Below are positions 1-26,925 of a stretch of DNA of 64,000 nt, piece after piece (the first letter of the stretch is position 1; every line of letters begins with the position of its first letter). Origin of the DNA: Xenococcaceae cyanobacterium MO_167.B27. Lineage in GTDB: Bacteria; Cyanobacteriota; Cyanobacteriia; Cyanobacteriales; Xenococcaceae. The stretch spans positions 1,798 through 65,797 of the forward strand of contig JASJCP010000029.1 of the NCBI GenBank assembly GCA_030065935.1, written 5' to 3'. Made by a program: the position numbers and the translations under genes. The notes beneath the pieces were generated by a model. The model was not told where the DNA came from. It made no database searches and saw nothing but the letters and a program-made list of their open reading frames with translations.

Positions 1-313
1 TCAAAACTGGACTGATTCTTTAGCATTTTTCCAAGATTTAGTTCACCAATTACTCTCTTTTTCGACGGGCAAAAACGATTATTATCGTCAAGGTTTAAGA
101 GCTGCTTCCCTTATACAGTCTGCTTTTTGACCTTTTCTGTAGCCCCCCCCCGGCAGAGATTAAAGGAATTTGAAACCGTCAGGGAATGTGTAGATGCTGC
201 CTTGAAAAATTGTCCTAATGTTTTTGAGTAAGGCTATAACTTACTATCATACCATAAAAAACTTTTGCAAGAGTTCTAGTCTATGTTGTGATTAAAAAGT
301 CAATATAATGATT

Positions 314-3300
314 TTATTCTAATCCAGAGCCGAAAGCCTGTCGAAAATGGCGATCTTTAATGATCAGTAACCCATCTGTCCAATCGTCAAAAGCTAACTG
401 TGCTGAGGTTTCTATTGCAGTAGCAATATCACGACCCGATAAACCAACTAGAGCTTGAGCATAAACATTTAGGTCAACATCCTTATCTAATACCCAATCG
501 GGATGAATTTTGACCTGTAATAATTGCAATATTTCTTTGGCTCCTGGTAAAGGTATGAGAATTTCTCTTTGTAAGCGAGAGCGCACCGCAGCATCGACAT
601 TTTGAGGATAATTGGTTGCACCTAAAACAAAAAGATAACCTTCCTGGGAATGAATACCATCCACTTCCTGAAGAAATTGATTGACCAAGTTTTGGTTTTC
701 CAAATCTGCACCAGTACTACCTAGATTTTCTCGATTGGGAAATAGGGATTCTATTTCATCGAAGAAGAGAATCCCTGGAGAATTTTGACGAGCTTGGTTA
801 AAGACATCCGCTAGATTGCGGGAACTTTGACCGACCCATTTACTGCGGATCTCTGCTGGGGAGTAGCTTTTGAAATATAATCCTGATACCGAAGCCATCA
901 CCCTGGCAATTTGGGTTTTACCTGTTCCTGGTTCTCCACACAGTAGTGCGCCTTGGGGAGGATTAATTCCTGGAGGCAAATGGGCATAGTTGGCAACTAA
1001 TTTTAGCAATCGCTGGAGTTCGGTTTTAATCTGAGTCGGTAAAATAACATCATCCCAAGTTAGTTCTCCCAATGGTGCTTTGGCTTGTAATACTGCCTGA
1101 AAATCTTCTGTGGTAATCACTAGAGATTCTTCAGCAGAAATGCGATCGCTGGCATACTGACCTACTTCACTGACTAATTGCCGTAGATCCCGACCAGATT
1201 TGCCTTGTAGTAGTCGGGCAATCTTTTCCCAGTCTAAATGAGGAGCAATATTCATTTCTCTAGTAAATAAGCGCAGCATTGCTATACGCTCTGGTACGGC
1301 AGGTAGGGAAAGTTCCACTACTTTGTTCAAGCGAGAGCGTACTGCCTTATCTACCCGTTCTACATAATTAGTTGTTCCCACAACAAATACCCCTTTAGTT
1401 CCACCACGAAAACCATCTAGTTCTTGTAATAGCTGATTAATTAGTTCAATTTCATGTTGGGGACTGTTGCTGTCTCGTTGAGGAAAGAGAGCTTCAATTT
1501 CATCAATGAATAGGATTGCGGGAGCGTCTCGTCTAGCTTTAGCAAAGGTTTGGGCTAGTTTTTGGGTAGCTTCTCCTACATATTGGGAACGTACTTCGGC
1601 AATGGTTAGATTAATAAAGTTACAGCCAGCAGCTTTTGCTAACACTCTGGCTACTTGGGTTTTGCCAGTGCCAGGAGGTCCATAGAGTAGTATTCCTGGA
1701 GCGGGAGTCACGCCAGGCAGAGGATTACGGAAAAAGTCTAGAAATCTTTTAAGAGTAGTTTGAAGGGTTTGTTGGATTTCGGCAGGGAGAATTAATTGCT
1801 GCCAGGCAGAAGAATCGATCGCCACAGGGGGAAGTAATATTTGATCAAAATCAGCGCGGGTAAGAATTACTTTTGTCTTCGACCAGCCGTTTCTCTGGAT
1901 ATAGGCTTGTCCCACGCGAGATAATAACCTTTGGATATCTCGTCCCGATTTCCCGTCTAGTAGCTTACTAATTGTTGTTAGATTCACATCAGTAGCTAGT
2001 TGCCAATCCTTTTTCTGCAAAGCTTGTTCTAACATGATGCGCCGTTCTTCTAATCCAGGTAAAGGGACTTCTAGAGTTGGCTGCAAGCGAGAAATTACTG
2101 CTGGATCAACTGCCTCCCCACGGTTGGTTGTTGCCAAAATAAAAATTCCTGCTGCTCCATCTATCTGTTGTAAAAATTCATTGACTAATTCTACTTCTGT
2201 GTTGCTGCTGCCAGGTTCTCGACGGGGGAAAAGAGAATCAATTTCATCAAATAAGAGAATACAAGGAGAGCGATCGCGTGCATCGTTAAAAATAGTTTGT
2301 AAGTTCCGTAAACTGCCACCTTGATAGGGACTTTGCACTTCACTAGGGTTGATTGCCCGAAAATACCAACCCGTTTTAGCAGCTAAATAGCGAGCAATTT
2401 GGGTTTTGCCCGTTCCTGGTAAGCCGATTAATAGCATTCCTTGAGGGAGATCGAGTCCTAAACTCAGAGCTTGGGGTAAATTCTGGAGCGTGGTCAGAGT
2501 TTGCTCTACTCTTTGCCTGATAGGAGGCGACAGAATAAGCTCAGGAACATTCTGATTATCTCCTGTGCCTAAAATAGCTTGTTGAAAATGCTCTAGGGTA
2601 ATCTCTCCTTCATCCTTTTCTTGGCAAGCTAGGTGATAGGCTTCCTCTACTTTAGCCTTAATCGCACGACCCGACTTACCTGCTAAGAGTAAAGCAACCG
2701 CCTGCCAATCTAGTTGAGGAGCAACTGGACGTTCTCCCACAAATAATTTCAGTAACTCGATTCGTTCTGGTAATTCTGGCAAAGGAATCGCGATCGCTTT
2801 TGCTAAACGAGAACGAACGGCAGCATCTACCTGTTCTGGTCTATTAGTAGCTCCTACAACCAAAATTCCCCTGGCACTGTGTTTAACTCCATCTACCTCC
2901 TGAAGAAATTGATTGACCAACTCGATTTCATGTTGAGCTGTATTTTCACCACGAGAAGGAAAAAGACCGTCAATTTCGTCAAAAAAGAGGATAGCAGGGG
3001 AATTACGGCGAGCCTGGGCAAAAATTCGGGCTAATTTGCGGTTACTCTCTCCCACAAACTTGTCTCGAACGTCTCCCGCATTGATTCCTTGGAACTGAAT
3101 CCCCCCTAATTTTGCCATCGCCCTAGCAATTTCCGTTTTTCCCGTCCCAGGAGAGCCAGACAATAATAAACCTGCGGGAGGGGTTAGCCTTGGATTGGCA
3201 AAAGCTTGGAGAAATTGGGCTAAAGTTCTAGTAAGTTGCTTTCTCAATCTCTCTGGTAGAATCACCCCTGTAAGTTCCCCAGTTATTTTAGGAACTAAAA

Positions 3301-5203
3301 CTGAGTCAAACTGTTCTCGATTCAAAATCAAGTCAGAATGTGGCAATTGCCCTACTACCCGTTCTGCGATCGCTTTAATTTCTCTGCCTGATTTACCAAT
3401 TAGCAGTTGAGCATAATAGTTTAAATCTACATCCGCAGCTAGTTCCAGATTTTTATGCGGATTTTTAAGGGTAAAGTATGCCAACATTTGCTCTCGTTGT
3501 GATTCATCAGGTAGAGGCAAAGTAATTTGCTCTTGAAGTCGGGATAATACTGCTGGCTCGACTTGCTCTATGCGATTGGTGGTCGCTACAATCATTACCC
3601 CTGTAGAGGGGGATAGGCGGTCTATTTCTTGCAGAAATTGGTTAATCACCTCTCCACTAGTAGGGTCTCCTATCTGTTCATCTTGCCTGGGCAAGATAGC
3701 ATCTATTTCGTCAAACAATAGCATTGCTGGTGCTTTAACCCTGGCTTCAGCAAAAATATTTTGTAAGTTTTGCAGACTTTGACCAACGAGAGAACTTTTA
3801 ATTTTGCCTGGAGTTACGGTAATTAACTCACAGTTGGCATCTTGAGCCAATAGCTTACTGAGGGTTGTTTTTCCTGTTCCTGAAGCCCCATTTATCATTA
3901 GAGTTACGGGACAATCTGAGTTAGGGTAAGTAGCAAGATCCCATTCTCGCCATTGCCATCCCCATTGCTGAAACTGCTGTAACAATGGGGATGGCAGAAA
4001 AATCTGTTGCCAAATTTCTTCTGTAGATAAGGGCAAAAAGGGCTGAAAATGCTGCCAATCTAAATAGGGATTGCCAGTTTCATAGCGATATTTTTCAGCA
4101 TCTTTGACAATTTGGGCAATTTGATGACCGTCAATGCGTCCCAATCTTTGGGCTAAAACTACTAAATTTAGTTCTGGAGTTAGAGGACTATTAGTTTGAT
4201 GGAGATATTTGTTTAAAATTGCCACTCGACCTTCGAGATCGGGTTTGGGAACAGGTAAAACAAAGCTAAATAATCCTCCAGACTGTCGGAATTCTGGCGG
4301 GAGAATTTCTAAATTTTTAACCGCAGCAAGAATAATAATCTTTTTGGCTTGTTGCCGATTCCACTGCCAATAATTATCTAAGTTATCTCCTAGTTTTTCC
4401 TCCAATTGGCGAGATTTTTCCGCCTCAGAAGCTAAGTCTGCCACTCCCAGACTACCCCAAAAACGATTCCACCAAGTTGTTTGACCAGTGTTAGTCTGAC
4501 TAAATTGTTCAGTTTGTTGCAGATAGTGATAAAAAGTATCAAAATTCTGGAGCAAAATTACTGTAGGTGCGTGTTTAATGCTTTCTTTCAGCGATCGCTT
4601 AATTAATTTGCCTGCTTGATAAAGATTGTGAGCCTTACCTACATCCCTACTTATAAAGTTAAAGCTGATACCCCGCTCCTGACTCAATTCATCTGCCAAA
4701 CAGCGAGCTAAGAAACGTTTGCCTCTCCCTTCTCCTGCCACTAGCAGAATTCCTTGGACAGAGTGATTAAGATCCGCATCCAGAATCAAGTCACTATAGC
4801 GTTTAAGTTGAGTTCGTACCTGAGAATGACCCCGAAAGTTATCTAAACTGAAGGGTGGACTAGGGGGCGGTTCGGGATAATATAATTCTTGGTCATTGCT
4901 AGCTAACAGAGACTGAGTCTCAGGTACTAAACGCAACATTACTCCTGGTTCTTGACCCAAACGAAACCATTGATAAGGATTGATTGGCTGTTCTTGAATA
5001 GGCTGGTCTTGGATATAGGTTCCATAGGTGCTACTACAATCCCGCAGATACCAACTTCCTTCCGTCCAAAAAAGTTCCGCATGACTCCGAGAAACGGTAG
5101 GAATATCAAAACGAATATCCTGATTAGGATGACGACCGAGTCCATATACTCGGTCTTGATGTAGTAGCCAAGTTTGTCCAGAATCTTGCTCTTCCAAGAA
5201 CAT
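314..5203 (-). CDS. Giant FHA-domain protein with six tandem AAA+ ATPase modules (one degenerate, five canonical; classic-clade-like)
   Basis: 1629-aa ORF. The N-terminus has FHA signatures (GLGR...SRSHAEL...RDCSSTYGT). Walker A motifs fall at hand-counted aa 156 (GEGRGKR, degenerate), 439 (GASGTGKT), 683 (GSPGTGKT), 927 (GLPGTGKT), 1175 (GPPGTGKT) and 1423 (GEPGTGKT). Each canonical module also has a Walker B (LLFDEID, LFFDEID, LFIDEIE, LFFDEIE), a sensor-1 TN, a VD.AV.SRL motif and a lid motif GKSGR[DAE]I. Module spacing is 244-248 aa. Confidence 0.9.
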   Translation of the reverse strand: MFLEEQDSGQTWLLHQDRVYGLGRHPNQDIRFDIPTVSRSHAELFWTEGSWYLRDCSSTYGTYIQDQPIQEQPINPYQWFRLGQEPGVMLRLVPETQSLLASNDQELYYPEPPPSPPFSLDNFRGHSQVRTQLKRYSDLILDADLNHSVQGILLVAGEGRGKRFLARCLADELSQERGISFNFISRDVGKAHNLYQAGKLIKRSLKESIKHAPTVILLQNFDTFYHYLQQTEQFSQTNTGQTTWWNRFWGSLGVADLASEAEKSRQLEEKLGDNLDNYWQWNRQQAKKIIILAAVKNLEILPPEFRQSGGLFSFVLPVPKPDLEGRVAILNKYLHQTNSPLTPELNLVVLAQRLGRIDGHQIAQIVKDAEKYRYETGNPYLDWQHFQPFLPLSTEEIWQQIFLPSPLLQQFQQWGWQWREWDLATYPNSDCPVTLMINGASGTGKTTLSKLLAQDANCELITVTPGKIKSSLVGQSLQNLQNIFAEARVKAPAMLLFDEIDAILPRQDEQIGDPTSGEVINQFLQEIDRLSPSTGVMIVATTNRIEQVEPAVLSRLQEQITLPLPDESQREQMLAYFTLKNPHKNLELAADVDLNYYAQLLIGKSGREIKAIAERVVGQLPHSDLILNREQFDSVLVPKITGELTGVILPERLRKQLTRTLAQFLQAFANPRLTPPAGLLLSGSPGTGKTEIARAMAKLGGIQFQGINAGDVRDKFVGESNRKLARIFAQARRNSPAILFFDEIDGLFPSRGENTAQHEIELVNQFLQEVDGVKHSARGILVVGATNRPEQVDAAVRSRLAKAIAIPLPELPERIELLKLFVGERPVAPQLDWQAVALLLAGKSGRAIKAKVEEAYHLACQEKDEGEITLEHFQQAILGTGDNQNVPELILSPPIRQRVEQTLTTLQNLPQALSLGLDLPQGMLLIGLPGTGKTQIARYLAAKTGWYFRAINPSEVQSPYQGGSLRNLQTIFNDARDRSPCILLFDEIDSLFPRREPGSSNTEVELVNEFLQQIDGAAGIFILATTNRGEAVDPAVISRLQPTLEVPLPGLEERRIMLEQALQKKDWQLATDVNLTTISKLLDGKSGRDIQRLLSRVGQAYIQRNGWSKTKVILTRADFDQILLPPVAIDSSAWQQLILPAEIQQTLQTTLKRFLDFFRNPLPGVTPAPGILLYGPPGTGKTQVARVLAKAAGCNFINLTIAEVRSQYVGEATQKLAQTFAKARRDAPAILFIDEIEALFPQRDSNSPQHEIELINQLLQELDGFRGGTKGVFVVGTTNYVERVDKAVRSRLNKVVELSLPAVPERIAMLRLFTREMNIAPHLDWEKIARLLQGKSGRDLRQLVSEVGQYASDRISAEESLVITTEDFQAVLQAKAPLGELTWDDVILPTQIKTELQRLLKLVANYAHLPPGINPPQGALLCGEPGTGKTQIARVMASVSGLYFKSYSPAEIRSKWVGQSSRNLADVFNQARQNSPGILFFDEIESLFPNRENLGSTGADLENQNLVNQFLQEVDGIHSQEGYLFVLGATNYPQNVDAAVRSRLQREILIPLPGAKEILQLLQVKIHPDWVLDKDVDLNVYAQALVGLSGRDIATAIETSAQLAFDDWTDGLLIIKDRHFRQAFGSGLE
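317..4756 (-). other. Array of six AAA+ modules within one ORF (internal tandem duplication at protein level)
   Basis: Walker A, Walker B and lid motifs recur about every 245 aa. The first module lacks the DE of Walker B (VILLQNFD). Confidence 0.8.
4919..5152 (-). other. FHA (phosphothreonine-binding) domain of the 1629-aa protein
   Basis: aa ~18-95: RVYGLGRHPNQDIRFDIPTVSRSHAELFWTEGSWYLRDCSSTYGTYI. This carries the conserved G-R, S-R-x-H and S-x-x-G-T positions of FHA domains. Confidence 0.8.
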
Positions 5204-5394: not shown

Positions 5395-6699
5395 TTAAGG
5401 TTCCTCGCGGTTGATAATAAAAGATGCCGTACGTCCCTCTGGAATAGGTTGATTATTAACATTGCCTACACCAGCAATATTGGCTTCTAGGGTAATACCT
5501 CCTCTCCCATCTTTGACACCGACGATTTCCACTAAATTTCTTCCTGGTTTTAGGTCGAGCATGATAATCCTGCCATAATTGCGGATCATTTGATTGCTTG
5601 CCACAACTCGACCATTAACTTTTAAGGTTACATAATCCCCATCTTCTGCCCAATAATCTATTAGTTCAATAGGAACTTGGGGAGCAAAAACAGTTACATT
5701 ACGGAATCCATAACTATTACTGGTAGATGAGCTATTGGACAAACTAACTTTAGGCGATATTGGTTTGGTTTGAACTTGAGGAATGGTGACGTTTAAATAG
5801 GGGTCATTAGCAGCTAAAGGGGGTTGGGTGGCAGAGGTAATTTGCTTGGGTGGTTGACTAGGGGGTTTACTAGCAGGAAGGGTGGCAATTTTTGGCTGTT
5901 GAGTTGGGACAGAAGCAATTTTCGGAGTCTGTTTAACAGTAGTTCGTTGAGTTGGCTGGGGCTTAAAATTAGTCTTGCTTGCTCTTGCTTGTATTGGTGG
6001 TGGTGGAGGTAGCTTGGGCAGAGGACGAGATGCTGCTGCTAAAGCTTGGGCAAATTTCTGTTGCTCTGCTTGTTGCTGTTGTTGTTGCCATTGAGTAATT
6101 TGTTTTTGTACTTCTGCACTAGTTGTAATTTGTTCTGTAATTAATTTTGCGATCGCCACTGCTCCCGCTAAATCCCCTTTACTAGCTTGGGTTTTTGCTT
6201 GTTCTAGAATTTGTTGTGACCAGCTTGTAGTTAAAGATTGAGCTTGGTCACTAATTTTACTATCAGTAGGTAACTTACTGGCTATAGCAATCGCTCTGGC
6301 TAGGTCTGGGGTTTTATTGCTTTGGGCAAGTAATTTGGCTTGCTCCAATAACATTGCCTCTTCTTGCTGACTATTGCCTAAAGAATTTATCTTAGGAGCC
6401 TCCAGAGTCAGACGGGTATTAACAGTAGGATTAGGTTCCTCAGAAGTCAGTTTTTTTCCTGGTTGTAGTTGGGGAACAACTATAGTTGCGATCGCTGTTA
6501 ATAAACCCAATCCTACTATTCCTGAAATCCACCAATTTGGAGATTTCTGAGCAACAGTATCTAGGTTTTCGGCATCAATTTGGAAATTTTGCTTTTTTTG
6601 AGAATATTTAGGTTTATTTAGGGTTTTTGAGGGCAAATTAACCAATTTTTGCTCTCTTTTCTCTCTTTTACCTACGGTTTCAAACTCGTCTTTTGCCAC
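5395..6699 (-). CDS. Single-pass membrane protein with Q-rich and proline-rich linker and a C-terminal beta-rich domain; function unknown
   Basis: 434-aa ORF. It has a basic N-terminus, a TM segment (WWISGIVGLGLLTAIATIVVP), a QQQQQQ tract and a PKLPPPPPIQ proline-rich tract. Its start lies 20 nt downstream of the kinase gene's stop, on the same strand. Confidence 0.7.
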   Translation of the reverse strand: MAKDEFETVGKREKREQKLVNLPSKTLNKPKYSQKKQNFQIDAENLDTVAQKSPNWWISGIVGLGLLTAIATIVVPQLQPGKKLTSEEPNPTVNTRLTLEAPKINSLGNSQQEEAMLLEQAKLLAQSNKTPDLARAIAIASKLPTDSKISDQAQSLTTSWSQQILEQAKTQASKGDLAGAVAIAKLITEQITTSAEVQKQITQWQQQQQQAEQQKFAQALAAASRPLPKLPPPPPIQARASKTNFKPQPTQRTTVKQTPKIASVPTQQPKIATLPASKPPSQPPKQITSATQPPLAANDPYLNVTIPQVQTKPISPKVSLSNSSSTSNSYGFRNVTVFAPQVPIELIDYWAEDGDYVTLKVNGRVVASNQMIRNYGRIIMLDLKPGRNLVEIVGVKDGRGGITLEANIAGVGNVNNQPIPEGRTASFIINREEP

Positions 6700-6718: not shown

Positions 6719-8074
6719 CTACTGAGATGTTGCAGGTTGAGATGTTAGCGCGCAAGCAACTTCCAAAGCTGCTGCATTCCCCAGATAATAAAAGGGGAAT
6801 TCTGAATCTAGAGATACTTCTTTTTCATAAGGGATACTTTCGGGAACTAACAAACGCAATTGATATCTATCTGGCGGAAAATTATTACCATCAGCCATAG
6901 ATTTAATCCAGATAAAACCTCGAATTGCATCACTTTCTTTGGCTAATAACTTTCCATTTCGCCAGACTTCTAACTTAGAGTCTCCAGCCAATGCTGTTTC
7001 TGGGTAATAGAATCTGGCTGCAAAACCGTGATCTGGTACTGGTAACTCTAGCTGACTTTTCACATAATTGGGACATTGAGGAACTTCAGCTGGTTTTTCC
7101 TGAAACAATTTTCTGACTTTAGGTAAGAGGAAAAAATAACCACCAGCCATAGCTGCCACTAGTAAAGTCATCACAGTTCCCACCATAAGGAATCTATTGC
7201 TGTTGCTACTTTCTTTGAGGAGATTGTTAGTTGGGGAACTACTGAGATTGATCGTTTCAACCTGAAATTTAAGAGCATCCCAGGCATCTATTAGCTTACA
7301 ATCCTCTGTTTTTAACATTTCTTTTAATAGTTCTTTTGTCCTATCAGAAAAGCCCAAACTATCTATTGACCAGGACTGATGCCAAGGAGGATTAGTTCCT
7401 AATCTAAAGGCAATAATAGTTTTTGCCAAAGCGTAAAGGTCCCATTGGGGACTAGCTGGAACTAGACCATCTCTTTGATCTGGATGAGCGTAACCAGGGG
7501 TATAAATTTGGGTATAACCGACTTTTTGCTGATGTTCTCCCAAAACAGTTGCCACTTCATCAACTAAACTCAGGTCACAAGCTGAACCGAAATCCACAAT
7601 TACTGTTGATTGATCGCTATTGCGACGCATTAGATTACTGGGCTTAATATCCCGATGTACGATCTTGGCTTTATGGAGTTCTGCTAAACCATTCAGAACT
7701 TCTATAAAAACTTGCTCAATTTCAGTAACAGTTAAAACTGAGCGATCGCCTTCTAAATAGTCAGCATAATTAATCCCATCAATCAATTCCTGAGCTAAAT
7801 ATAATCCTCCATCTTGTTCAAACAAGCAATAGGCTTTAGGGATACTGTTATGATTCAGCTTTTCTAGTATTTCCGCAGTCCTTTGGAAAGTGCGCCGACG
7901 CAAATTCTTTTCTTGAGTATCTCCTTGGATAATTAATTCTAATAAAGCTCTTTTAGGCTGACGGAGATCGAAAGTATCAGTAGCTGCATAAACTCTAGCA
8001 AAAGTACCTTGACCAATTAGATCTTGAATTTGGTACTTGGATAATTGGGTGAGTGGAGATAGGGGTTGATTCAT
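6719..8074 (-). CDS. Membrane-anchored Hanks-type Ser/Thr protein kinase with an extracytoplasmic C-terminal domain
   Basis: 451-aa ORF with GQGTFARVY (G-loop), HRDIKPSN (catalytic loop) and DFGSA. A TM segment (FLMVGTVMTLLVAAMAGGYFFLL) is followed by a ~120-aa C-terminal domain. Confidence 0.9.
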   Translation of the reverse strand: MNQPLSPLTQLSKYQIQDLIGQGTFARVYAATDTFDLRQPKRALLELIIQGDTQEKNLRRRTFQRTAEILEKLNHNSIPKAYCLFEQDGGLYLAQELIDGINYADYLEGDRSVLTVTEIEQVFIEVLNGLAELHKAKIVHRDIKPSNLMRRNSDQSTVIVDFGSACDLSLVDEVATVLGEHQQKVGYTQIYTPGYAHPDQRDGLVPASPQWDLYALAKTIIAFRLGTNPPWHQSWSIDSLGFSDRTKELLKEMLKTEDCKLIDAWDALKFQVETINLSSSPTNNLLKESSNSNRFLMVGTVMTLLVAAMAGGYFFLLPKVRKLFQEKPAEVPQCPNYVKSQLELPVPDHGFAARFYYPETALAGDSKLEVWRNGKLLAKESDAIRGFIWIKSMADGNNFPPDRYQLRLLVPESIPYEKEVSLDSEFPFYYLGNAAALEVACALTSQPATSQ

Positions 8075-8606
8075 CGACTTTGTCTTCTATTTCCCACCCT
8101 TAGCTACGGAAAGTTACCGTTTTCCAAGGGAGAATTGAGCTACTTATTAATATTTATTACTTAAATGCCCATTCAGTCTGGCACAGAATGGTTATAGGAT
8201 AATAAGTCCTCATCTTCGGCAGAATTATTCAGAGAGGAAGAGTTTAAACTTTCTTAGTTAATATGTCTCAGTAATTTTACTAGTTTTTAAATTTAACTAT
8301 AGTACAATTACTTATAACCTTGAATTGTATGATTTTTGTAAGCATTATACCTTCCTTGATTTGAGCCGTCAAAAAAAACCAGCATCAGGAAGCTTCAAAA
8401 GCTCTTTGAATTCAATGCTTTCTCCTATTGTTAACCTAGTTACATTTACCTAACTTAATATACTTCATTCCTGGTTTGATATTATGAACAGTATTTATCA
8501 AAAATAAGTCTTTAGTATTTGTCACAAATATAACAATTAGTAATCATCTCAGAAAATTGTTTTTTCAATTAATTCGATTAAGGGTTACATATTTTACCAA
8601 TAAGCC

Positions 8607-10562
8607 ATGAAAAGTAATTTTAATTTTTTAAAATCAACCTTTTTTTTACTTTTACAACCTAGTCCCAATACTAGTTTACATCGACGCAAAAATATCTTTT
8701 TTAAGACAGTTATCTTTCTCCTAGTTACATCTATGACTTTAGCCCCTGGATTTTTAGCCAGAGCAGCTATGATTATAGGTTTAATTGAAAGTTACGACCC
8801 CCAGACTAAACAAGCCACAATTAACTTAGGTAAAAAAGATGGTTTAGGTAAATATGACCGCGGGAAAATTGAGTTTACTAGTCTTGACGATCCCAATGTT
8901 AGGTTCATTGGTGCTAATATCGTCGTTTTAAGTGTTAAAGAAAACTCCGCAGTTGTTAGTGTAAGAGAAGCCCCTGGAATTCCAATTCCAGTTAAAGCTG
9001 GAGCGAGGGTAACATTAAATACAGAATCAGGTTTGGCTAGAAGAGAAGAAGAAGCTAGGCTCATAGCGATGGAGCAAGCCAAAAAAGCTCGCGAGCAGCA
9101 ACAACTTGAACAAGCTCGTCAACGTCGAGCGCAAGAACAAGCCCGTCAACGCCGAGCCGAAGAACAAGCCCGTCAACGCCGAGCCGAAGAACAAGCTCGT
9201 CAACGCCGAGCCGAAGAACAAGCTCGTCAACGCCGAGCCGAAGAACAAGCCCGTGCTGCCCAAACTCAACCGCAGATAGAAACCAAACAACCAAATAATC
9301 CCACTCAGAGTCAACCAAAAGCTTTTGATCTAGAAGAAGCGAGAAACTATTGGAAAACAGCATCTCAAGCAGATATTGAAGTTGGGGGACCTGCTTCTGA
9401 TTTACCCTCAGATTATCTCCAAGCTTATATAGAGGCTAGAACTGAGCCTTCTCCAGAAACTTACTATCAATTTGCTCAAATTTTAATTGATTATCAGATA
9501 ACAGACAAAGCATTAATGTGGCTCACAGAAGCTGAACGGCGTTTTCCTCTCACTAAATCTGTCAATAATTATTACGAAGCACTTGCTCTTACAGAAAATA
9601 ATTATTCTCCACAAAGTCTTAATCTTCTCCAAAGATCTGGTCTATCTGATAATCAATTATTAGAAGAAACTAAAAGCTATATCTTGACGCAAAATGGGAA
9701 TTGGCAAGAAGTAATTGAATTATCAGAAAAAAGACAGTCAGCAGTTATGTCGAATAACTATCTAATTGCTCTATATTGTGAACAGCCACAACAACTCAAT
9801 CCTAATACCTCTCTAGTTCTCACTGGCTGTCCTTCTGATTATAAAGAAGCTTCCCAAAAATCAAATTCCGAAGAATATTTAACCAACTTAAAAGCAGCAG
9901 CCAGAGAAGCCAAGGCTAAATATCCCAATGATCCTTACATTATTAACACTATTGGGTTTTTGGCACTTAAAACTGAAAATTATGATCTGGCTTATAAAAA
10001 CTATCAGAAACTTGCCAAACTAGTTGATAGCTATACTTCTACCCCACCTCACTTACAAATGCTTAAAGCTAATGCTATAAACTATATCAATAACTACAAC
10101 CAAAACTACGAATTTTTGGCGAGCAGAAGCGAAAATTTAGATATACTACGTTCTGAACAAAACTCTCTCACTAAATTAATAGCTTTTCAAGGTATTAGAG
10201 ATGTTGCCAGAAGAATTGATTACGATGCAAGTACTCAGAGTATTGTTGGAGGGGTGTTAGCAACCTTACTGCGTGTTAACCAATCCAGAATGCAGGCTAG
10301 ACGTATTGCTAATGAAAGAAAAGCATTACGCAGACAAATTCAGAGTACTTTCACAAAAGATATCAATCTAGTATCAGCACGTCCTGATTTAGAACCCAAA
10401 TCACTTTTAGAATCATCCTCCAATAATATTCAAAAACAGATGCTTTTGTACGATAGTTTCTGGAATTGTCAATGTCCTTCCTCTCCAAACTCAGATACCC
10501 TGAGTGAAAAAGGTGTAACTATTGTTGATGATAGCTGTAGTCGCTCCTGTAGAAACAGATAA
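8607..10562 (+). CDS. Large secreted or membrane-anchored protein with a charged coiled-coil repeat (EEQARQRRA x5) and a helical, TPR-like C-terminal region
   Basis: 651-aa ORF with an N-terminal hydrophobic segment and a perfect nonapeptide repeat. It is divergently oriented to the kinase operon. Confidence 0.75.
   Translation: MKSNFNFLKSTFFLLLQPSPNTSLHRRKNIFFKTVIFLLVTSMTLAPGFLARAAMIIGLIESYDPQTKQATINLGKKDGLGKYDRGKIEFTSLDDPNVRFIGANIVVLSVKENSAVVSVREAPGIPIPVKAGARVTLNTESGLARREEEARLIAMEQAKKAREQQQLEQARQRRAQEQARQRRAEEQARQRRAEEQARQRRAEEQARQRRAEEQARAAQTQPQIETKQPNNPTQSQPKAFDLEEARNYWKTASQADIEVGGPASDLPSDYLQAYIEARTEPSPETYYQFAQILIDYQITDKALMWLTEAERRFPLTKSVNNYYEALALTENNYSPQSLNLLQRSGLSDNQLLEETKSYILTQNGNWQEVIELSEKRQSAVMSNNYLIALYCEQPQQLNPNTSLVLTGCPSDYKEASQKSNSEEYLTNLKAAAREAKAKYPNDPYIINTIGFLALKTENYDLAYKNYQKLAKLVDSYTSTPPHLQMLKANAINYINNYNQNYEFLASRSENLDILRSEQNSLTKLIAFQGIRDVARRIDYDASTQSIVGGVLATLLRVNQSRMQARRIANERKALRRQIQSTFTKDINLVSARPDLEPKSLLESSSNNIQKQMLLYDSFWNCQCPSSPNSDTLSEKGVTIVDDSCSRSCRNR
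9108..9254 (+). repeat. 27-nt in-frame tandem repeat, about 5.4 copies, encoding EEQARQRRA
   Basis: The unit gaacaagc[ct]cgtcaacg[ct]cgagc..aa is repeated head to tail. It also produces the spurious antisense ORFs at 9027-9363. Confidence 0.9.
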
Positions 10563-11523: not shown

Positions 11524-12903
11524 TTACTTAGCTACAGCAGGTAAATAACTGTCTATTACCTGACGATATTCACTCTTTTGTTTAATGCCTTTCATCTCCT
11601 TAACTAATTCTTTATCGTGGAAAAATTGAATAGTAGGAGTACCGACAACTTGTCCCATTTTGGCAATTTCTGGGTCTTCCACAATGTCTATTTCGACAAA
11701 GTGAATTTTCCCTTCGTATTCTGCTACTACCTTATCTAACATTGGTTTTAGGGTTTTACAAGGACCACAGGTAGGAGATACATATTTTACCATCAAAAGG
11801 CGATCGCTCTCATGGAAGAGTTTTCTTAGGGCATAACCACCGTAATGGCTGGTAGCATTAAGATCAAAAGTGGCTTCAGTTTCTTGAGGGGTTTTAGTTT
11901 CAGGAGTGGTTTCTTTCTCTGTTACAGGCTGTTGAGAGTATTCTATAATCAGATTGTGTTCTGATAAATGTCTCTCTGCTGATAGTGCAGCCATACAACC
12001 AGTACCAGCAGCAGTAATAGCTTGACGGTATTCATGATCCTGTACATCGCCAGCAGCATAAACCCCAGGAATAGAAGTTGCTACTGTACCTGGTTGGACT
12101 TTAATGTAACCTACTTCATCTAGTTCTAGCTGTCCTTTGAACAAATCTGTATTAGGATTGTGACCGATAGCGTAAAATAGTCCTTTAGCTGCAATTTCGG
12201 TTTCTGCTCTAGTCTGGTTATTGCGAACTTTTATACCAGTCATGCGTCCATTTTCCCCGAATATGTCTATTGCTTCGGTGTGCCAATGAACTGTAACTTT
12301 AGGATTAGCTAATACTCTATCTTGCATTGCTTTAGAAGCTCGCATTTCTCCTTTACGTACTAAAAGATGCACATGAGAGCCATATTTAGTAAGATACACT
12401 GCTTCTTCGGCTGCGGAGTCACCACCACCAATTACGATTAATTCTTCTCCTACAAAAATGGGACTTGCACCATCACATATCGCACAAGCAGATATACCAT
12501 TATTCCAATAAGTTTTTTCACTAGGAAGTCCAAGACGCTTTGCTGTAGCACCAGTGGCAATGATGATACTATTGGCTTTAAATTCTCTGTCTGTAGAACG
12601 CACTGTAAAAGGTCGTTGAGTTAAATTTACTTCTACCACATCTTCTGTGTAACATTCTGTACCCCAACGCTCCGCCTGTAATTTCATTTGCTCCATTAGT
12701 TGAGGTCCTGTTATCCCTTCTGGAAAGCCAGGAAAGTTCTCTACTTCGGTGGTAGTCATTAGTTGTCCCCCAGGAATACCACCAGCTTGTAACCCTTCAA
12801 ACATCACAGGTTTCAAATTAGCTCTGGCTGCATAGATAGCAGCAGTAAAGCCAGCAGGTCCCGAACCAATAATTACAACATTTTCTACTTGAGGAGTGGT
12901 CAT
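11524..12903 (-). CDS. NADPH-dependent thioredoxin reductase C (NTRC; thioredoxin reductase fused to thioredoxin)
   Basis: 459 aa with IIGSGPAG (FAD), a CAICDG redox centre, [10 protein letters not shown] (NADPH) and a C-terminal thioredoxin module carrying CGPC. Confidence 0.9.
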
Positions 12904-13559: not shown

Positions 13560-13990
13560 TTTGTAACCCCCCTTGCTCTCTGGTACAGGGAAAGGTTGTT
13601 GGCGACTATACATTTAGTAATATTTATTCAGGATAATACAAATAAATAAAATTCATATTCGAGTTTAGCTTCCTGAGAGAAAGTTATAATCGCTTTGTTC
13701 GGGCTATATAGAGCCACAGCAATTTGAAGGGAGTCATAAATCCCTAGAGAAGAGCAATCCCCACCAATGAATTGGGGGGCTTGTAAATCTTGTATATGAC
13801 CAGACTAAGCCAATATATTTGGCTACGTTAAACAGGCTATCTCACCCTTAAGTGCTTGCCAGCTTGAGGCTCTGAGGCTTTAAATTAAACATCTTTAGAG
13901 GGATTAAGGAAGTGTTTGAAGCACGACAAACCTTTTTAACTTTGTCGAGGCAAACTTTACACATTTATGTAGAAGAGACAAAACCATGTC
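13560..13990 (+). ncRNA. Candidate IscB omega-RNA (guide-scaffold RNA) in the non-coding leader upstream of iscB
   Basis: There is no credible ORF in the ~480 nt upstream of iscB. Perfect hairpins lie at 13759-13777, 13808-13824 and 13924-13947. In described IscB loci the omega-RNA lies immediately 5' of, and runs into, the ORF. The boundaries given here are guesses. Confidence 0.45.
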
Positions 13991-15464
13991 TAATTACGTA
14001 TTCGTTCTAGATACCAACAAGCAACCATTGTCGCCCTGTACACCAGGGATGGCTCGTAGTCTGCTCAAGGCAGGGAAGGCAGAGGTATTTAAGCGGTATC
14101 CGTTCACGATCATTTTAAAAAAAACCGTCAACTCATACCAACTTGCGTTCAGAAACGTAACTTTGAAGTTGGCTTTCCAATCTGCCGATTCCAAATTTAA
14201 TCCGCGTTTTGCTCGACTTAACACAAAGCACGAAAATTACACTTTAGATAGCAAGCTGGTATCAAAGGAGATTAAACCATGTCAATTAAAACTCGACCCA
14301 GGTTCAGTCACTACTGGTATAGCAATATTGCAAGATAATAAGCTTATCTGGGCTGCTGAATTAACCCATAGAGGGCAAAAAATTAAAGACGATTTAGAAT
14401 GTAGACGCTCTTTAAGAAGAGGTCGTAGAGGCAGAAAAACTAGATATAGAAAACCTAGGTTTCTGAATCGTAAGCGGTCTAAAGGATGGTTAGCACCGAG
14501 TTTAGAACATCGAGTTTTAACCATCATGACTTGGGTTAACCGATTAATTAAGCTTTGTCCGATTAATTCTATTGCCACAGAATTAGTCAGATTTGATACC
14601 CAAAAACTCAATAACCCAGAAATATCAGGAGTTGAGTATCAACAAGGAACTCTTTATCAGTACGAAGTTAGACAATATTTATTGGAGAAATTCAACAGAA
14701 CCTGTGCTTATTGTGGTGTTAAAGACGTTCCTTTGGAAGTTGAGCATATTAAGCCCAAATCCAAAGGTGGTAGTAACAGAGTTTCTAACCTAGCTATTGC
14801 CTGCGTTTCTTGCAACCAAGCTAAGTCAAATCTAAATATTAAAGAGTTTCTGTTTGGCAAACCATCAGTTTTGAAAAGAATTTTAGCTCAAGCTAAAGCC
14901 CCATTGAAAGATGCTGCTGCGGTTAATTCAACTCGATGGAAACTATTTAATACTCTTAAAGAGACTGGCTTACCTGTAACCACTGGAACAGGAGGAAAAA
15001 CTAAGTTTAACCGATCTGTGCAAAGTCTAAAAAAGCGTCACTATCTAGATGCTGCTTGTGTTGGAGACACCCCAAAACTTGAGATACTAACAACTCAACC
15101 ATTGCTAATCAAATGTGCTGGTCATGGAAAAAGACAAGTTATTCACGTCGATAAATTTGGTTTTCCTAAAAGAAATAAATCAGGAGAACTTGTGAAAAAA
15201 TCGGCTTTGATTAAATCAATCAAAGGTTTTAGAACTGGAGATATTGTGAAAGCAATAGTTCCCAAAGGTAAGAAAATTGACCGTGGGGGATGCTCTCGGT
15301 TAGAGAGCATATCCAACCACGGTGTTGGCTTTTATTTAGGTAAGGTTGCCATCCGTTCTACTGGTTCATTTAATATCAAAACTGTTACCAAAACGGTGCA
15401 GGGGATTAATTATAAATATTGCAGCATTGTTCATAGGAAAGATGGATACCTTTATGGCTTCTAA
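13986..15464 (+). CDS. iscB: IscB, an OMEGA-family RNA-guided nuclease (PLMP, split RuvC with inserted HNH, C-terminal target-interaction domain)
   Basis: 492 aa. PLMP-type N-terminus: MSNYVFVLDTNKQPLSPCTPGMARSLLKAGKAEVFKRYPFTIIL. RuvC-I: LKLDPGSVTTGIA (D104). Arginine-rich bridge helix: RRSLRRGRRGRKTRYRKPRF. RuvC-II: ATELVRFD (E199). HNH: CAYCG...EVEHIKPKSKGGSNRVSNLAIACVSCN. RuvC-III: HYLDAACVG (D355). Confidence 0.85.
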   Translation: MSNYVFVLDTNKQPLSPCTPGMARSLLKAGKAEVFKRYPFTIILKKTVNSYQLAFRNVTLKLAFQSADSKFNPRFARLNTKHENYTLDSKLVSKEIKPCQLKLDPGSVTTGIAILQDNKLIWAAELTHRGQKIKDDLECRRSLRRGRRGRKTRYRKPRFLNRKRSKGWLAPSLEHRVLTIMTWVNRLIKLCPINSIATELVRFDTQKLNNPEISGVEYQQGTLYQYEVRQYLLEKFNRTCAYCGVKDVPLEVEHIKPKSKGGSNRVSNLAIACVSCNQAKSNLNIKEFLFGKPSVLKRILAQAKAPLKDAAAVNSTRWKLFNTLKETGLPVTTGTGGKTKFNRSVQSLKKRHYLDAACVGDTPKLEILTTQPLLIKCAGHGKRQVIHVDKFGFPKRNKSGELVKKSALIKSIKGFRTGDIVKAIVPKGKKIDRGGCSRLESISNHGVGFYLGKVAIRSTGSFNIKTVTKTVQGINYKYCSIVHRKDGYLYGF

Positions 15465-25817: not shown

Positions 25818-26227
25818 TTTGGGTTATGGAAACTCCGCGCAATAAATTGACGCGGATTCTTGGTTCATCCCCATGGCTTGAAATTTTAAAGGGGATGCTT
25901 CCCTACCTCAAACCCTTACCCCTTTAACCCTACCAACAGGTGCAATTTTATCGGGCTATGGCATTACAATTCTAGTGGTCGTATGTCCCCAAGGGTACTA
26001 GAATATTGGAGCTAGAGTTAGACTGCACGCCAGCCTACTTTTTAAGGTTTCAATTTCCTGGTGTGGGGAAATATAAAAATATTCCAATTATACGTGACTA
26101 TAACCATCTTTATTGATTTAATTAGGTCATAATAGTCTTATAGTCAGGTGATGTAGCACATCCCAAACAAATTTACCCAATATAAATACTACAATACATA
26201 TATCACATAAGACCAACCCCAAAATTT

Positions 26228-26905
26228 ATGCTAAATTCCCTATCCTCTTATCAGATTCTTACCAGTTATAGCCGTTTGAAAGTTAATTCTCTCGGTAACG
26301 CATTACCAATGGTTGTGGAACAATCAGGTGTTGGGGAAAGAGCATTTGATATTTATTCGCGATTATTAAGAGAAAGAATTATCTTCTTAGGTACTGCTAT
26401 TGATGATAAAGTGGCAGACTCAGTTGTTGCCCAATTACTCTATTTAGAAGCGGAAGACCCAGAAAAAGACATACAAGTTTATATCAACTCTCCTGGAGGG
26501 TCAGTGTATGCTGGGATGGCTATCTATGACACAATGCAACAAATACAACCAGATGTTGTGACTATTTGTTATGGTATAGCTGCAAGTATGGGGGCGTTTC
26601 TACTGTCTGGTGGAGCAAAAGGCAAAAGAATGGCATTACCTAGTAGCCGTATTATGATTCATCAACCTCTAGGAGGAGCGCAAGGTCAAGCCGTCGATAT
26701 TGAAATTCAAGCTAAAGAAATTCTTTACATCAAGAAAAAGCTCAATGAGTTAATCTCAGAACACACAGGTCAACCATTTGATAAAGTAGCTAATGATACA
26801 GAACGAGATTTCTATATGTCTTCGGAAGAAGCTACAGAATATGGCTTAATCGACCGTGTTATCACCAAAACTGAATCTTCTCCATCCCTAACAACAGCAT
26901 CATAA
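26228..26905 (+). CDS. clpP: ATP-dependent Clp protease proteolytic subunit
   Basis: [26 protein letters not shown] (Ser) and MIHQPLGG (His). The true start may be the internal Met at 26309. Confidence 0.9.
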
Positions 26906-26925
26906 ATCCAAGCGAAGAGGAACTT

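What the first reader, a model, noticed from the sequence alone, without database searches (positions are those of the whole stretch)
314..5203. Six AAA+ modules in one polypeptide behind an FHA domain: a possible single-chain pseudo-hexameric ATPase read out by phosphothreonine
Classic-clade AAA+ proteins usually carry one or two ATPase modules and assemble into hexamers. This single uninterrupted 1629-aa ORF contains six modules at a regular hand-counted spacing of 244-248 aa. Five have intact Walker A (G.[SP]GTGKT), Walker B (FDEI[DE]), sensor-1 and lid (GKSGR.I) motifs. The first is degenerate, with GEGRGKR and no DE. Six modules in one chain is the stoichiometry of a complete ring; known precedents are dynein and midasin/Rea1, which belong to different clades. 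The N-terminal FHA domain suggests recruitment or gating by a pThr mark, and a Hanks kinase is encoded two genes upstream. I know of no characterised bacterial protein with this architecture, but I could not search for one.
Basis: partly seen in the sequence, partly recalled or inferred. Interest (0 to 1): 0.85.

Follow-up and report, generated by a model that had tools for sequence, protein, structure and literature searches.

The report
Six-module AAA+ ATPase with FHA head
A rare cyanobacterial gene really does encode one 1629-residue chain with a phosphothreonine-reader (FHA) domain, one dead and five intact classic AAA+ ATPase modules, always next to a membrane kinase and a membrane partner. 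Whether the six modules close into one ring is still untested.

Summary
ORF 314..5203(-) encodes 1629 aa: an FHA domain, a degenerate AAA module (M0) and five classic-clade AAA modules with intact Walker A/B, sensor-1 and lid motifs at a 244-248 aa period. The modules are only 33-49% identical to each other. About 19 independent assemblies carry the same architecture, so it is not an assembly artefact.

The family is tiny. It occurs in 11 of 185,579 species representatives, all cyanobacterial MAGs (several named Xenococcaceae, Xenococcus or Pleurocapsa), and is named only "AAA family ATPase". I found no paper on it.

The gene is the last of a conserved cluster: P651, kinase, TM434, AAA6. All four genes are present in 12 of the 14 loci with informative flanks. 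The kinase lacks the canonical beta3 lysine in all 11 sequences examined (10 fetched loci and the window).

The single-chain ring idea is neither shown nor refuted:
- AlphaFold gave pTM 0.49 for the five active modules.
- Inter-module connectors are only 7-9 residues.
- One relative has four modules fused to TPR-CHAT.

My best reading is a pThr-recruited, membrane-proximal unfoldase whose modules assemble within one chain. Verdict: a new variant of a known kind, interest about 0.68.

The parts
314..5203 (-). AAA6 gene: 1629-aa FHA + M0 + M1-M5 protein (stop codon at 314-316). Identical to NCBI MDJ0743504.1, 'AAA family ATPase', Xenococcaceae cyanobacterium MO_167.B27.
4904..5203 (-). FHA domain (residues 1-100). 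G23-R24 and S38-R39-x-H41 are invariant in 19 homologues. The Asn of the NG loop is replaced by Y/H/Q.
   Evidence: Pfam FHA E 1e-14. AF2 pLDDT about 90 and Foldseek TM 0.80-0.88 to FhaA/Rv1747/GarA/OdhI. Conservation.
4010..4873 (-). M0, the degenerate AAA module (residues 111-398). The P-loop remnant is G-x-G-R-G-[KI]-R. The Walker B equivalent is QNF[DE]. Both SRH arginines are lost.
   Evidence: hhalign probability 97.9%, E 4e-13 against the active modules. Two colinear HMM hits. Motif table across 19 homologues. The AF2 model of its large subdomain has low confidence.
4349..4510 (-). Conserved Trp-rich insert in M0 (about residues 232-285; TGQTTWWNRFWG...YWQWN). It occupies the segment between the Walker B strand and the DG(ISS)/beta4 region of the active modules.
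   Evidence: Alignment. Invariant G240, W244, W245, G253, D256, S259, E262, R265, Y278, W279, W281 and N282.
3275..4009 (-). M1 (residues 399-643): GASGTGKT, LFDEID, pore loop L-V-G, SRH AVLSR (first Arg is Leu in 18/19). It is the fastest-evolving active module. In 4 divergent homologues Walker B is DD and the pore loop is x-P-G.
2543..3274 (-). M2 (residues 644-887): GSPGTGKT, FFDEID, pore loop K-[FY]-V-G, SRH AVRSR, lid GKSGRAI.
1799..2542 (-). M3 (residues 888-1135): GLPGTGKT, LFDEID, pore loop Y-Q-G, SRH AVISR (first Arg is I/V/A in 19/19), lid GKSGRDI.
1055..1798 (-). M4 (residues 1136-1383): GPPGTGKT, FIDEIE, pore loop Y-V-G, SRH AVRSR, lid GKSGRDL.
317..1054 (-). M5 (residues 1384-1629): GEPGTGKT, FFDEIE, pore loop W-V-G, SRH AVRSR (19/19), lid GLSGRDI.
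5395..6699 (-). TM434, the conserved partner gene immediately upstream. It has a cytoplasmic N-tail of about 55 aa, one TM helix, a variable PQ-rich or coiled-coil spacer and a conserved C-terminal domain of about 110-140 aa (EDGD[FY]V...GGITLE). No Pfam, NCBIfam or PDB match.
6553..6564 (-). Candidate FHA docking site in the TM434 tail: L46-D47-T48-V49, 8-12 residues before the TM helix. The motif [LIVF]-D-T-[VI] is kept in 12 of 13 orthologues; the remaining one has Ser.
   Evidence: Its role is inferred, not shown.
6719..8074 (-). Membrane Hanks-type kinase: a kinase domain, a TM helix and a conserved extracytoplasmic domain of about 130 aa with two Cys. HRDIKPxN and DFG are invariant, but the beta3 Lys position reads A-L-L-E in all 11 sequences examined.
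8607..10562 (+). P651, the fourth conserved gene. It is divergent here and co-directional in L014 and L015. It has an N-terminal hydrophobic anchor or signal, an EQARQRRAE coiled-coil repeat and a helical C-terminal region. No family match.
8344..8372 (-). Best sigma-70-like site in the region (TTGACG-17-TATAAT, 11/12), upstream of the kinase start. It is compatible with one kinase-TM434-AAA6 transcript. No terminator-like site falls in the intergenic gaps between the three genes.
   Evidence: a consensus match only; the overall count is not above the shuffles

Best explanation
AAA6 is the cytoplasmic ATP-driven effector of a four-gene envelope signalling module (P651, membrane kinase, TM434, AAA6) found in a few cyanobacteria, several of them named Xenococcaceae, Xenococcus or Pleurocapsa.

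Proposed mechanism:
1. A cue is sensed outside the cytoplasmic membrane by the extracytoplasmic domains of the kinase, TM434 and P651. This is inferred.
2. A threonine becomes phosphorylated. The best candidate is the conserved D-T-V just before the TM helix of TM434. The writer would be the adjacent atypical kinase or another kinase. This is inferred.
3. The FHA domain docks AAA6 on that pThr. The FHA fold and its phosphate-binding residues are shown; the ligand is inferred.
4. The five active classic-clade AAA modules grip a polypeptide with their pore loops and unfold or extract it. This is inferred from intact Walker A/B, sensor-1 and SRH motifs and [aromatic/Leu]-x-Gly pore loops.

The most likely assembly is intramolecular: the five active modules form the staircase of a ring or spiral within one chain, and the dead M0 module fills or flanks the sixth ('seam') position. 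That would make it a natural counterpart of engineered single-chain ClpX or linked Msp1 pseudohexamers. This last step is the least secure.
For: Architecture and motifs.

M0 is a AAA homologue.

All five active modules are under strong purifying selection. Mean pairwise identity is 0.61-0.77. The Walker A Lys/Thr, the second SRH Arg and the lid Arg are invariant. The Walker B acidic pair is kept in all, with the Glu replaced by Asp in M1 of 4 homologues and M4 of one.

Pore loop 1 is [FYW]-V-G in M2, M4 and M5, L-V-G in M1 and Y-Q-G in M3.

Classic-clade identity: the closest PDB relatives are unfoldases, namely VAT, Cdc48/p97 and PAN.

FHA fold.

Conserved gene cluster. Conserved D-T-V tail motif.

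The six-module count is kept in all 19 full-length homologues.

M1, whose arginine finger would face the dead M0 site in a dynein-like n+1-to-n ring, has lost its first SRH Arg in 18/19 sequences. M5, which would face it in the opposite handedness, keeps R-S-R in 19/19.

Precedent that rings tolerate inactive subunits: linked Msp1 dimers with one inactive subunit remain partly active (PMC12793716). The ClpX single-chain work is from my own knowledge.
Against: There is no direct evidence of ring closure. AF2 pTM is 0.49. Foldseek returned only p97/Cdc48-like chains, with rough two-module fits. AF2 is biased towards the D1-D2 stacking it has seen in single chains (my judgement).

Inter-module connectors are only 7-9 residues. 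The module period is 244-248 aa, against 273-280 in p97 and VAT (alignment; p97 K251/K524 from my own knowledge). Linking Msp1 subunits within a ring worked best with 35 residues, the adjacent visible termini being 55-76 A apart.

P0021, a relative with an intact 2244-aa ORF, carries only M0 plus three active modules.

In a closed ring M5's site would have no arginine finger, because M0 has none. Yet M5's cis motifs are invariant.

M0 and M1 show correlated loss of cis and trans elements. That is what a stacked homo-oligomer predicts.

The kinase lacks the beta3 Lys. No substrate is identified.
Confidence: 0.45

Rival explanations
1. Stacked homo-oligomer. Six chains assemble side by side, so that each module type forms its own homo-hexameric tier: an inactive M0 tier plus five active tiers. 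This would be an elongated Cdc48/ClpB-like tube with a long central channel, carrying six FHA domains on top.
For: - Modules are closest to the D1 and D2 modules of the type-II unfoldases VAT/p97, and the TIGR01243 CDC48 model aligns colinearly across M4-M5.
- In the AF2 model, consecutive modules superpose roughly on D1-D2 of substrate-engaged Cdc48/p97 (TMt up to 0.59).
- Cis and trans catalytic elements decay together within M0 and within M1.
- The four-module variant P0021 is easy to accommodate, because tiers can be removed.
- Other chains with 2, 3 and 5 tandem AAA modules exist: P0124, P0100 and P0028.
Against: - No AAA+ machine with more than two tiers is known (my own knowledge).
- Connectors of 7-9 residues are about half the length of the p97/VAT D1-D2 connector.
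- The superposition on p97 is poor: rmsd 7-15 A, and TMt 0.29-0.39 for the many non-engaged p97 states listed.
- The count of six is conserved in all 19 full-length homologues.
- M3 has lost its first SRH Arg while its cis motifs are intact.
Confidence: 0.2
2. Conflict or defence (abortive-infection-type) system. The kinase/FHA pair senses infection or damage, and the multi-AAA chain activates or is itself an effector. In the P0021 relative this effector role would be taken by the fused TPR-CHAT caspase-like protease.
For: - P0021 is FHA-M0-3xAAA-TPR-CHAT (CHAT E 7e-67).
- PADLOC IetA models hit all five modules (E 5e-157), and PD-T4-6 and MAD6 kinase models hit the kinase.
- Distribution is sporadic, in 11 species representatives.
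- The flanks differ between genomes. In L001 they include PIN/RHH, a UvrD-like gene with DUF2290, and methyltransferases. A TnpB-like IS abuts the gene in L016.
Against: - The IetA score is summed over five generic AAA modules. It is below the NCBIfam cut-off (469.7 vs 510) and below the CDC48 and PAN scores.
- No IetS-like protease or other effector is in the cluster.
- The kinase hits are generic kinase-domain similarity.
- Three of the four gene products have extracytoplasmic parts, which suggests envelope sensing.
- In other genomes the flanks are housekeeping genes such as recA, cobN and phytoene synthase/desaturase.
Confidence: 0.15
3. Artefact or decaying gene: a mis-assembled array of shorter tandem AAA genes, or a pseudogene.
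For: The window comes from a MAG. The gene is internally repetitive at protein level.
Against: - Modules are only 33-49% identical, and the DNA repeats are at most 47 nt.
- The same 1619-1684-aa ORF is found in about 19 clusters and 11 species representatives, including Mb-scale contigs.
- Catalytic motifs are invariant across 57-74% identical homologues.
Confidence: 0.01

Closest known systems
Cdc48/p97/VAT (type-II classic-clade AAA unfoldases)
   Same: - It is the best sequence and structure relative of each module, at about 30-45% identity.
- It shares Walker A/B, SRH, pore loop 1, the DG ISS motif and the AAA_lid_3 lid.
- Modules start with the same T-W-x-D-[IV] N-loop as D2 of p97.
   Different: - Six modules rather than two.
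- No Cdc48 N-domain.
- It scores below the TIGR01243 cut-off (644.8 vs 802.65).
- The module period is 244-248 aa rather than 273-280.
- The SRH is shortened to R-S-R-L, where most classic-clade relatives retrieved here have R-x-G-R-[FL].
- The lid is GKSGRD, with an Arg where most relatives examined here have Ala (GxSGAD). Both features are family-specific.
Dynein / midasin (Rea1) / RNF213 single-chain AAA+ rings
   Same: Six AAA+ modules in one polypeptide, some of them catalytically dead. If the modules form a ring, the n+1 module would supply the finger to site n, as in dynein.
   Different: - A different clade. There is no independent AAA_5 or dynein-type signal beyond P-loop overlap.
- It is prokaryotic, far smaller (181 kDa), and has almost no inserts or linker domain.
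- Ring closure is untested.
Engineered single-chain or linked pseudohexamers (ClpX; Msp1 linked dimers, PMC12793716)
   Same: Covalent linkage of AAA+ modules, with a mix of active and inactive subunits that still work.
   Different: - The engineered versions use 20-35-residue flexible linkers (ClpX from my own knowledge).
- Here the connectors are 7-9 conserved residues, and the modules have diverged to 33-49% identity.
Threonine-phosphorylation pathways with FHA adaptors (T6SS PpkA-Fha1-ClpV; mycobacterial PknB-FhaA, Rv1747)
   Same: A membrane Hanks-type kinase with an extracytoplasmic domain, an FHA reader, and an ATPase effector encoded together. The FHA fold is closest to FhaA, Rv1747 and GarA.
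   Different: - The FHA is fused directly to the AAA+ motor.
- No T6SS genes are in the cluster.
- The kinase lacks the beta3 Lys.
- The partner proteins TM434 and P651 belong to no described family.
IetA (AAA ATPase of the IetAS anti-phage system)
   Same: It is a classic-clade AAA module. PADLOC and NCBIfam IetA models align to every active module.
   Different: - IetA has one module.
- The summed score here is below the cut-off (469.7 vs 510).
- No IetS protease partner is present.
- CDC48 and PAN models score higher.

Membership tests
Classic-clade AAA (PF00004 + AAA_lid_3) | Walker A GxxGxGK[ST] and Walker B hhhhDE | tested here: met
   Five modules have both motifs. The Walker A Lys/Thr is invariant in 19 homologues, and Walker B D-E is kept except D-D in M1 of 4 and M4 of 1. 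M0 fails both.
Classic-clade AAA (PF00004 + AAA_lid_3) | Second region of homology: sensor-1 Asn plus two arginines | tested here: met
   T-N-[RY] and A-V-R-S-R-L in M2, M4 and M5. M1 and M3 keep only the second Arg. The SRH is two residues shorter than in VAT.
Classic-clade AAA (PF00004 + AAA_lid_3) | No sensor-2 arginine (lid motif GxSGAD) | tested here: not met
   All five lids read G[KL]SGR[DEA]. The Arg is invariant and aligns with the Ala of VAT GADL. That this feature defines the clade is from my own knowledge.
CDC48/p97 family (TIGR01243) | Score above the curated cut-off; N-domain plus exactly D1-D2 | tested here: not met
   644.8 bits against a cut-off of 802.65. There is no CDC48_N hit, and there are six modules.
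FHA domain (PF00498) | 11-strand beta-sandwich fold with G-R and S-x-x-H loops | tested here: met
   Pfam E 1e-14. TM 0.80-0.88 to solved FHA domains. G23, R24, S38 and H41 are invariant. The Asn of the NG loop is not conserved.
FHA domain (PF00498) | Binds phosphothreonine peptides | not testable with these tools
   This needs ITC or a pull-down with pThr peptides.
Single-chain AAA+ ring (dynein/midasin type) | Six AAA+ modules in one polypeptide | tested here: met
   Five active modules plus M0.
Single-chain AAA+ ring (dynein/midasin type) | The modules close into one intramolecular ring | tested here: inconclusive
   AF2 pTM 0.49 for residues 430-1629. The full chain exceeds the 1200-aa limit and no coordinates were available. 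Foldseek shows only p97-like chains.
Single-chain AAA+ ring (dynein/midasin type) | Membership of the dynein/midasin/MoxR AAA_5 lineage | tested here: not met
   The PF07728 hit (E 3e-24) is far weaker than PF00004 (E 1e-173), and its best stretch covers only the N-terminal half of the P-loop domain. The lids are AAA_lid_3.
Hanks-type Ser/Thr kinase (neighbour gene) | Gly-rich loop, beta3 Lys (VAIK), HRD...N, DFG | tested here: inconclusive
   The Gly-rich loop, HRDIKPxN and DFG are invariant. The beta3 Lys position reads A-L-L-E in all 11 sequences examined. The Pkinase domain has E 5e-27.
IetAS defence system | IetA equivalog score and an adjacent IetS protease | tested here: not met
   NF042959 scores 469.7 against a cut-off of 510, summed over five modules. 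No protease is in the cluster.

The most novel reading that the evidence does not exclude
A natural, asymmetric single-chain AAA+ hexamer of the classic (Cdc48/PAN-type) clade in bacteria. Five diverged active modules would be hard-wired as the substrate-gripping staircase, and a dead, Trp-rich M0 module would be fixed at the seam. The machine would be recruited to a membrane protein tail by an N-terminal pThr reader. This would be a convergent, minimal analogue of dynein, midasin or RNF213. It would also be a natural version of the engineered single-chain ClpX and linked Msp1 pseudohexamers used to ask whether strict rotary hand-over-hand hydrolysis is required.
Probability: 0.35. Interest if true: 0.85.

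Novelty: new variant of a known kind. Interest (0 to 1): 0.68.

Why it matters
AAA+ unfoldases of the classic clade are textbook homo- or hetero-hexamers of chains with one or two modules. A chain with six such modules is not described in any paper I could find, especially one whose modules have each diverged and specialised.

If it folds into one ring, it fixes the order and identity of every subunit. This family has one dead site, two sites whose predicted finger donors lack the first arginine, distinct pore loops per position, and an added cis arginine in every lid. It would then be a natural test case for how much subunit equivalence and sequential hydrolysis a translocating AAA+ ring needs. 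Until now that question has been approached only with engineered linked constructs.

If instead it stacks into five or six tiers, that would be equally unprecedented.

The conserved link to a membrane kinase lacking the canonical lysine, and to two membrane proteins of unknown family, also defines a new envelope-to-cytoplasm signalling module. It occurs in a group of cyanobacteria that is known here almost entirely from MAGs.

Tried and rejected
1. Assembly artefact: rejected.

2. Structure of the whole chain: not possible, because of the 1200-aa limit. I predicted residues 430-1629 and 1-430 instead. The tools return no coordinates or PAE, so ring geometry could not be measured.

3. Foldseek as an indirect geometry test: inconclusive. 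The ranking is dominated by sequence-similar p97 chains, and no dynein or midasin chain appears in the top 50.

4. AF2 of M0: low confidence (pLDDT 30-55 in the large subdomain, with only 8 sequences), so Foldseek TM scores for M0 are meaningless. M0's AAA identity therefore rests on profile comparison.

5. Arginine-finger and Walker-motif bookkeeping to discriminate ring from stack: it fits both about equally.

6. Connector-length argument: the connectors are shorter than both the p97 D1-D2 linker and engineered in-ring linkers, so it does not discriminate either.

7. Family assignment of TM434, P651 and the kinase's outer domain: no significant Pfam, NCBIfam, PADLOC or PDB match. The only hits are weak, E of 4e-4 or worse and far below the curated cut-offs.

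8. Literature: five searches found nothing on this family.

9. Four-module ancestor idea: rejected. P0021's second and third active modules are clearly M4-like and M5-like. Its first looks like an M1(N-half)/M3(C-half) chimera. P0021 is therefore derived from a six-module form by an in-register two-module deletion.

10. IetA membership: rejected.
Full report
**1. Observation**

The minus-strand ORF 314..5203 is intact and encodes 1629 aa. Five Walker A motifs (GASGTGKT, GSPGTGKT, GLPGTGKT, GPPGTGKT, GEPGTGKT) lie at residues 439, 683, 927, 1175 and 1423, giving spacings of 244, 244, 248 and 248. Each is followed by hhhhDE, a sensor-1 T-N-[RY], an A-V-x-S-R-L arginine motif and a G[KL]SGR lid motif.

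Pfam reports FHA at residues 22-75 (E 1e-14) and PF00004 in five stretches (E 1e-173). NCBIfam PAN and FtsH models report six stretches.

hhalign gives probability 97.9%, E 4e-13, over 222 columns. An HMM built from the 95 active modules gives two colinear hits. M0 has no functional P-loop: the motif is G-x-G-R-G-[K/I]-R, with Ile in most homologues. It has no Walker B (Q-N-F-[D/E]) and neither SRH arginine. It carries a highly conserved Trp-rich insert of roughly 45-55 residues.

The FHA domain is modelled with pLDDT about 90. It superposes on mycobacterial FhaA, Rv1747 FHA-1 and GarA, and on corynebacterial OdhI, with TM 0.80-0.88 and rmsd 1.5-2.3 A. Its G-R and S-R-x-H loops are invariant. 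The NG-loop Asn is not conserved.

**2. Not an artefact**

- Modules M1-M5 are 33-49% identical to each other, and M0 is about 20% identical to them.
- DNA repeats inside the gene are 20-47 nt at 60-94% identity.
- The exact protein is NCBI MDJ0743504.1, 'AAA family ATPase', from Xenococcaceae cyanobacterium MO_167.B27.
- Eighteen further clusters at 57-74% identity have 1619-1684 aa and the same five Walker A positions. Some come from contigs of 1.5-4.6 Mb.

**3. Distribution**

A phmmer search with FHA+M0 (residues 1-430) ran against 1.84 billion representatives at 50% identity. It found three clusters covering the whole query (E below 1e-150) and a few shorter fragments of the same region; the remaining hits are generic FHA domains.

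A scan of 185,579 GTDB species genomes found the FHA+M0 unit in 11. All are cyanobacterial MAGs: Xenococcaceae, Xenococcus, Pleurocapsa, one 'Leptolyngbyaceae', and unclassified Cyanobacteria or uncultured-bacterium MAGs. A two-module fragment at 48% identity from Cyanothece sp. SIO1E1 hints at more divergent members.

**4. Gene context**

By tblastn, the window's upstream genes recur in the same order in nearly every locus. They are TM434 (5395..6699), the kinase (6719..8074) and P651 (8607..10562). All four genes are present in 12 of the 14 fetched loci whose upstream flank is informative. These 14 loci include duplicate fetches of some genomes.

- TM434 is adjacent to AAA6 in 13 of the 14, the 13th being L003.
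- L003 lacks the kinase and P651 within 8 kb.
- In L016 a TnpB-like IS element abuts the gene.
- In L001 a 23S-rRNA-IVP/bAvd-like gene is inserted between TM434 and AAA6.

The gap between the kinase and TM434 genes is 19 nt, and the gap between TM434 and AAA6 is 191 nt. The best promoter-like site, 11/12, lies upstream of the kinase.

TM434 has a tail of about 55 residues, one TM helix, a variable spacer and a conserved C-terminal domain. The motif [LIVF]-D-T-[VI], 8-12 residues before the TM helix, is kept in 12 of 13 orthologues.

The kinase has a TM helix and a conserved outer domain with two Cys. HRDIKPxN and DFG are invariant. The beta3 Lys position reads A-L-L-E in all 11 sequences examined, with no conserved substitute nearby.

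None of TM434, P651 or the kinase's outer domain matches a described family.

**5. What the modules are**

Each module is a classic-clade AAA domain with an AAA_lid_3 lid. The best solved relatives are VAT, Cdc48/p97 D1 and D2, Rix7/NVL, Afg2 and PAN.

Two features are shared by all five active modules, including those of P0021. They are absent from the nearest outside relatives, which are TPR-AAA proteins of about 425 aa at 46-48% identity with RRGGRL and G[YL]SGAD motifs.

- The SRH is two residues shorter (R-S-R-L).
- An invariant Arg sits at the classical sensor-2 position of the lid (GKSGRD rather than GxSGAD).

The modules are therefore monophyletic products of intragenic duplication.

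Conservation is uneven. M2-M5 have mean identity 0.73-0.77, and M0 and M1 have 0.61-0.63. In the four most divergent homologues, M1 has D-D for Walker B and x-P-G for the pore loop. The first SRH Arg is Leu in M1 (18/19) and I/V/A in M3 (19/19), and Arg in M2 (19/19), M5 (19/19) and M4 (18/19).

**6. Ring or not**

Points for an intramolecular ring or spiral:
- The count of six is conserved in all full-length homologues.
- Five gripping modules plus one dead module matches the five-engaged-plus-seam geometry of substrate-bound AAA+ rings (my own knowledge).
- M1, which would face the dead M0 site in a dynein-like arrangement, has a degenerate finger. M5 does not.

Points against, or neutral:
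- AF2 of residues 430-1629 gives pLDDT 82 but pTM 0.49.
- The Foldseek top hits are p97, Cdc48, Rix7 and NVL over two modules, with TMt 0.29-0.59 and rmsd 7-15 A. This is neither a clean D1-D2 stack nor evidence for a ring.
- Connectors are 7-9 residues. The period of 244-248 compares with 273-280 in p97 and VAT. That is shorter than the p97 D1-D2 linker, and much shorter than the 35-residue linker that worked best for in-ring linkage of Msp1, whose adjacent visible termini are 55-76 A apart.
- M0 has no arginine finger to give M5.
- Cis and trans decay are correlated within M0 and within M1.
- P0021 (2244 aa) is FHA-M0-[M1/M3 chimera]-M4-like-M5-like-TPR-CHAT. It is a six-module form that lost exactly two modules.
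- Other tandem-AAA chains exist. P0028 has five SpoVK-type modules and occurs in Ignavibacteriota. P0100 has three classic modules. P0124 has FHA plus two.

**7. Mechanism proposed**

I propose an envelope-signal-controlled, pThr-recruited unfoldase or extractase.

Shown:
- The domain architecture.
- Intact ATPase and pore-loop motifs under purifying selection.
- The FHA fold.
- The conserved four-gene cluster.
- The conserved Thr motif in the partner's cytoplasmic tail.

Inferred:
- Who phosphorylates what.
- That the FHA domain binds the TM434 tail.
- That a polypeptide, perhaps TM434 itself, is threaded.
- That the modules assemble within one chain.

**8. Novelty**

No paper on this family was found, and databases give only a generic name. 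It is a new architectural variant of classic AAA+ unfoldases coupled to FHA/kinase signalling, not a new kind of enzyme. It could become much more interesting if the single-chain ring, or a multi-tier tube, is confirmed.

Noticed in passing
window 6719-8074 (-); L001, L004, L006-L009, L011-L014: The conserved neighbouring Hanks-type kinase has invariant HRDIKPxN and DFG. The canonical beta3 (VAIK) lysine position reads A-L-L-E in all 11 sequences examined, with no conserved replacement Lys. It is either an atypical kinase or a pseudokinase.
   Followed up: partly
L005 662-7396 (P0021): A 2244-aa relative is FHA-M0-three AAA modules-TPR-CHAT. Its first active module looks like an M1/M3 chimera, which implies an in-register two-module deletion plus fusion to a caspase-like protease. 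It is known from a single 9.4-kb Logan contig.
   Followed up: partly
window 314-5203, all five lids (e.g. residues 603-609, 842-848): Every active module has an invariant Arg at the classical sensor-2 position (GKSGRD, against GxSGAD in most classic AAA relatives examined). Each also has an SRH shortened by two residues (R-S-R-L). Both features are family-specific.
   Followed up: partly
window 4349-4510 (-), M0 residues ~232-285: A strongly conserved Trp-rich insert (TGQTTWWNRFWG...YWQWN) occupies the segment between the Walker B strand and the DG/beta4 region in the dead module. It might be a membrane-interface or substrate-binding element. The AF2 model there has pLDDT about 30.
   Followed up: no
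window 33543-34955 (-) and 35161-37596 (+): A second Hanks-type kinase is encoded divergently from an FHA-FHA-ABC transporter. This arrangement is like mycobacterial Rv1747 with PknF.
   Followed up: no
P0028 (MBZ0181742.1, Melioribacteraceae/Ignavibacteriota), P0100, P0124: Other single chains carry tandem AAA modules. P0028 has five SpoVK/CbbX-type modules in 1392 aa. P0100 has three classic modules in 915 aa. P0124 has FHA plus two modules in 976 aa. None is close to this family.
   Followed up: partly
L016 5694-6941; L001 9527-9898: In a sister MAG (MO_167.B52) a TnpB-like IS200/IS605 ORF sits directly upstream of the AAA6 gene in place of TM434 and the kinase. In L001 and L002 a 23S-rRNA-IVP/bAvd-like gene is inserted between TM434 and AAA6.
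   Followed up: partly
window 11524-12903, 13986-15464, 19483-21243, 24438-28275, 40216-43917: Other genes in the window: an NTRC-type thioredoxin reductase-thioredoxin fusion; an RRXRR+HNH endonuclease; RNase J; a trigger factor ... ClpX cluster; and a 1233-aa FG-GAP/ASPIC protein with 11 RTX repeats.
   Followed up: no
window ~140-150 (minus-strand reading): A run of nine G (ccgggggggggct) lies in the intergenic DNA downstream of the AAA6 stop codon.
   Followed up: no
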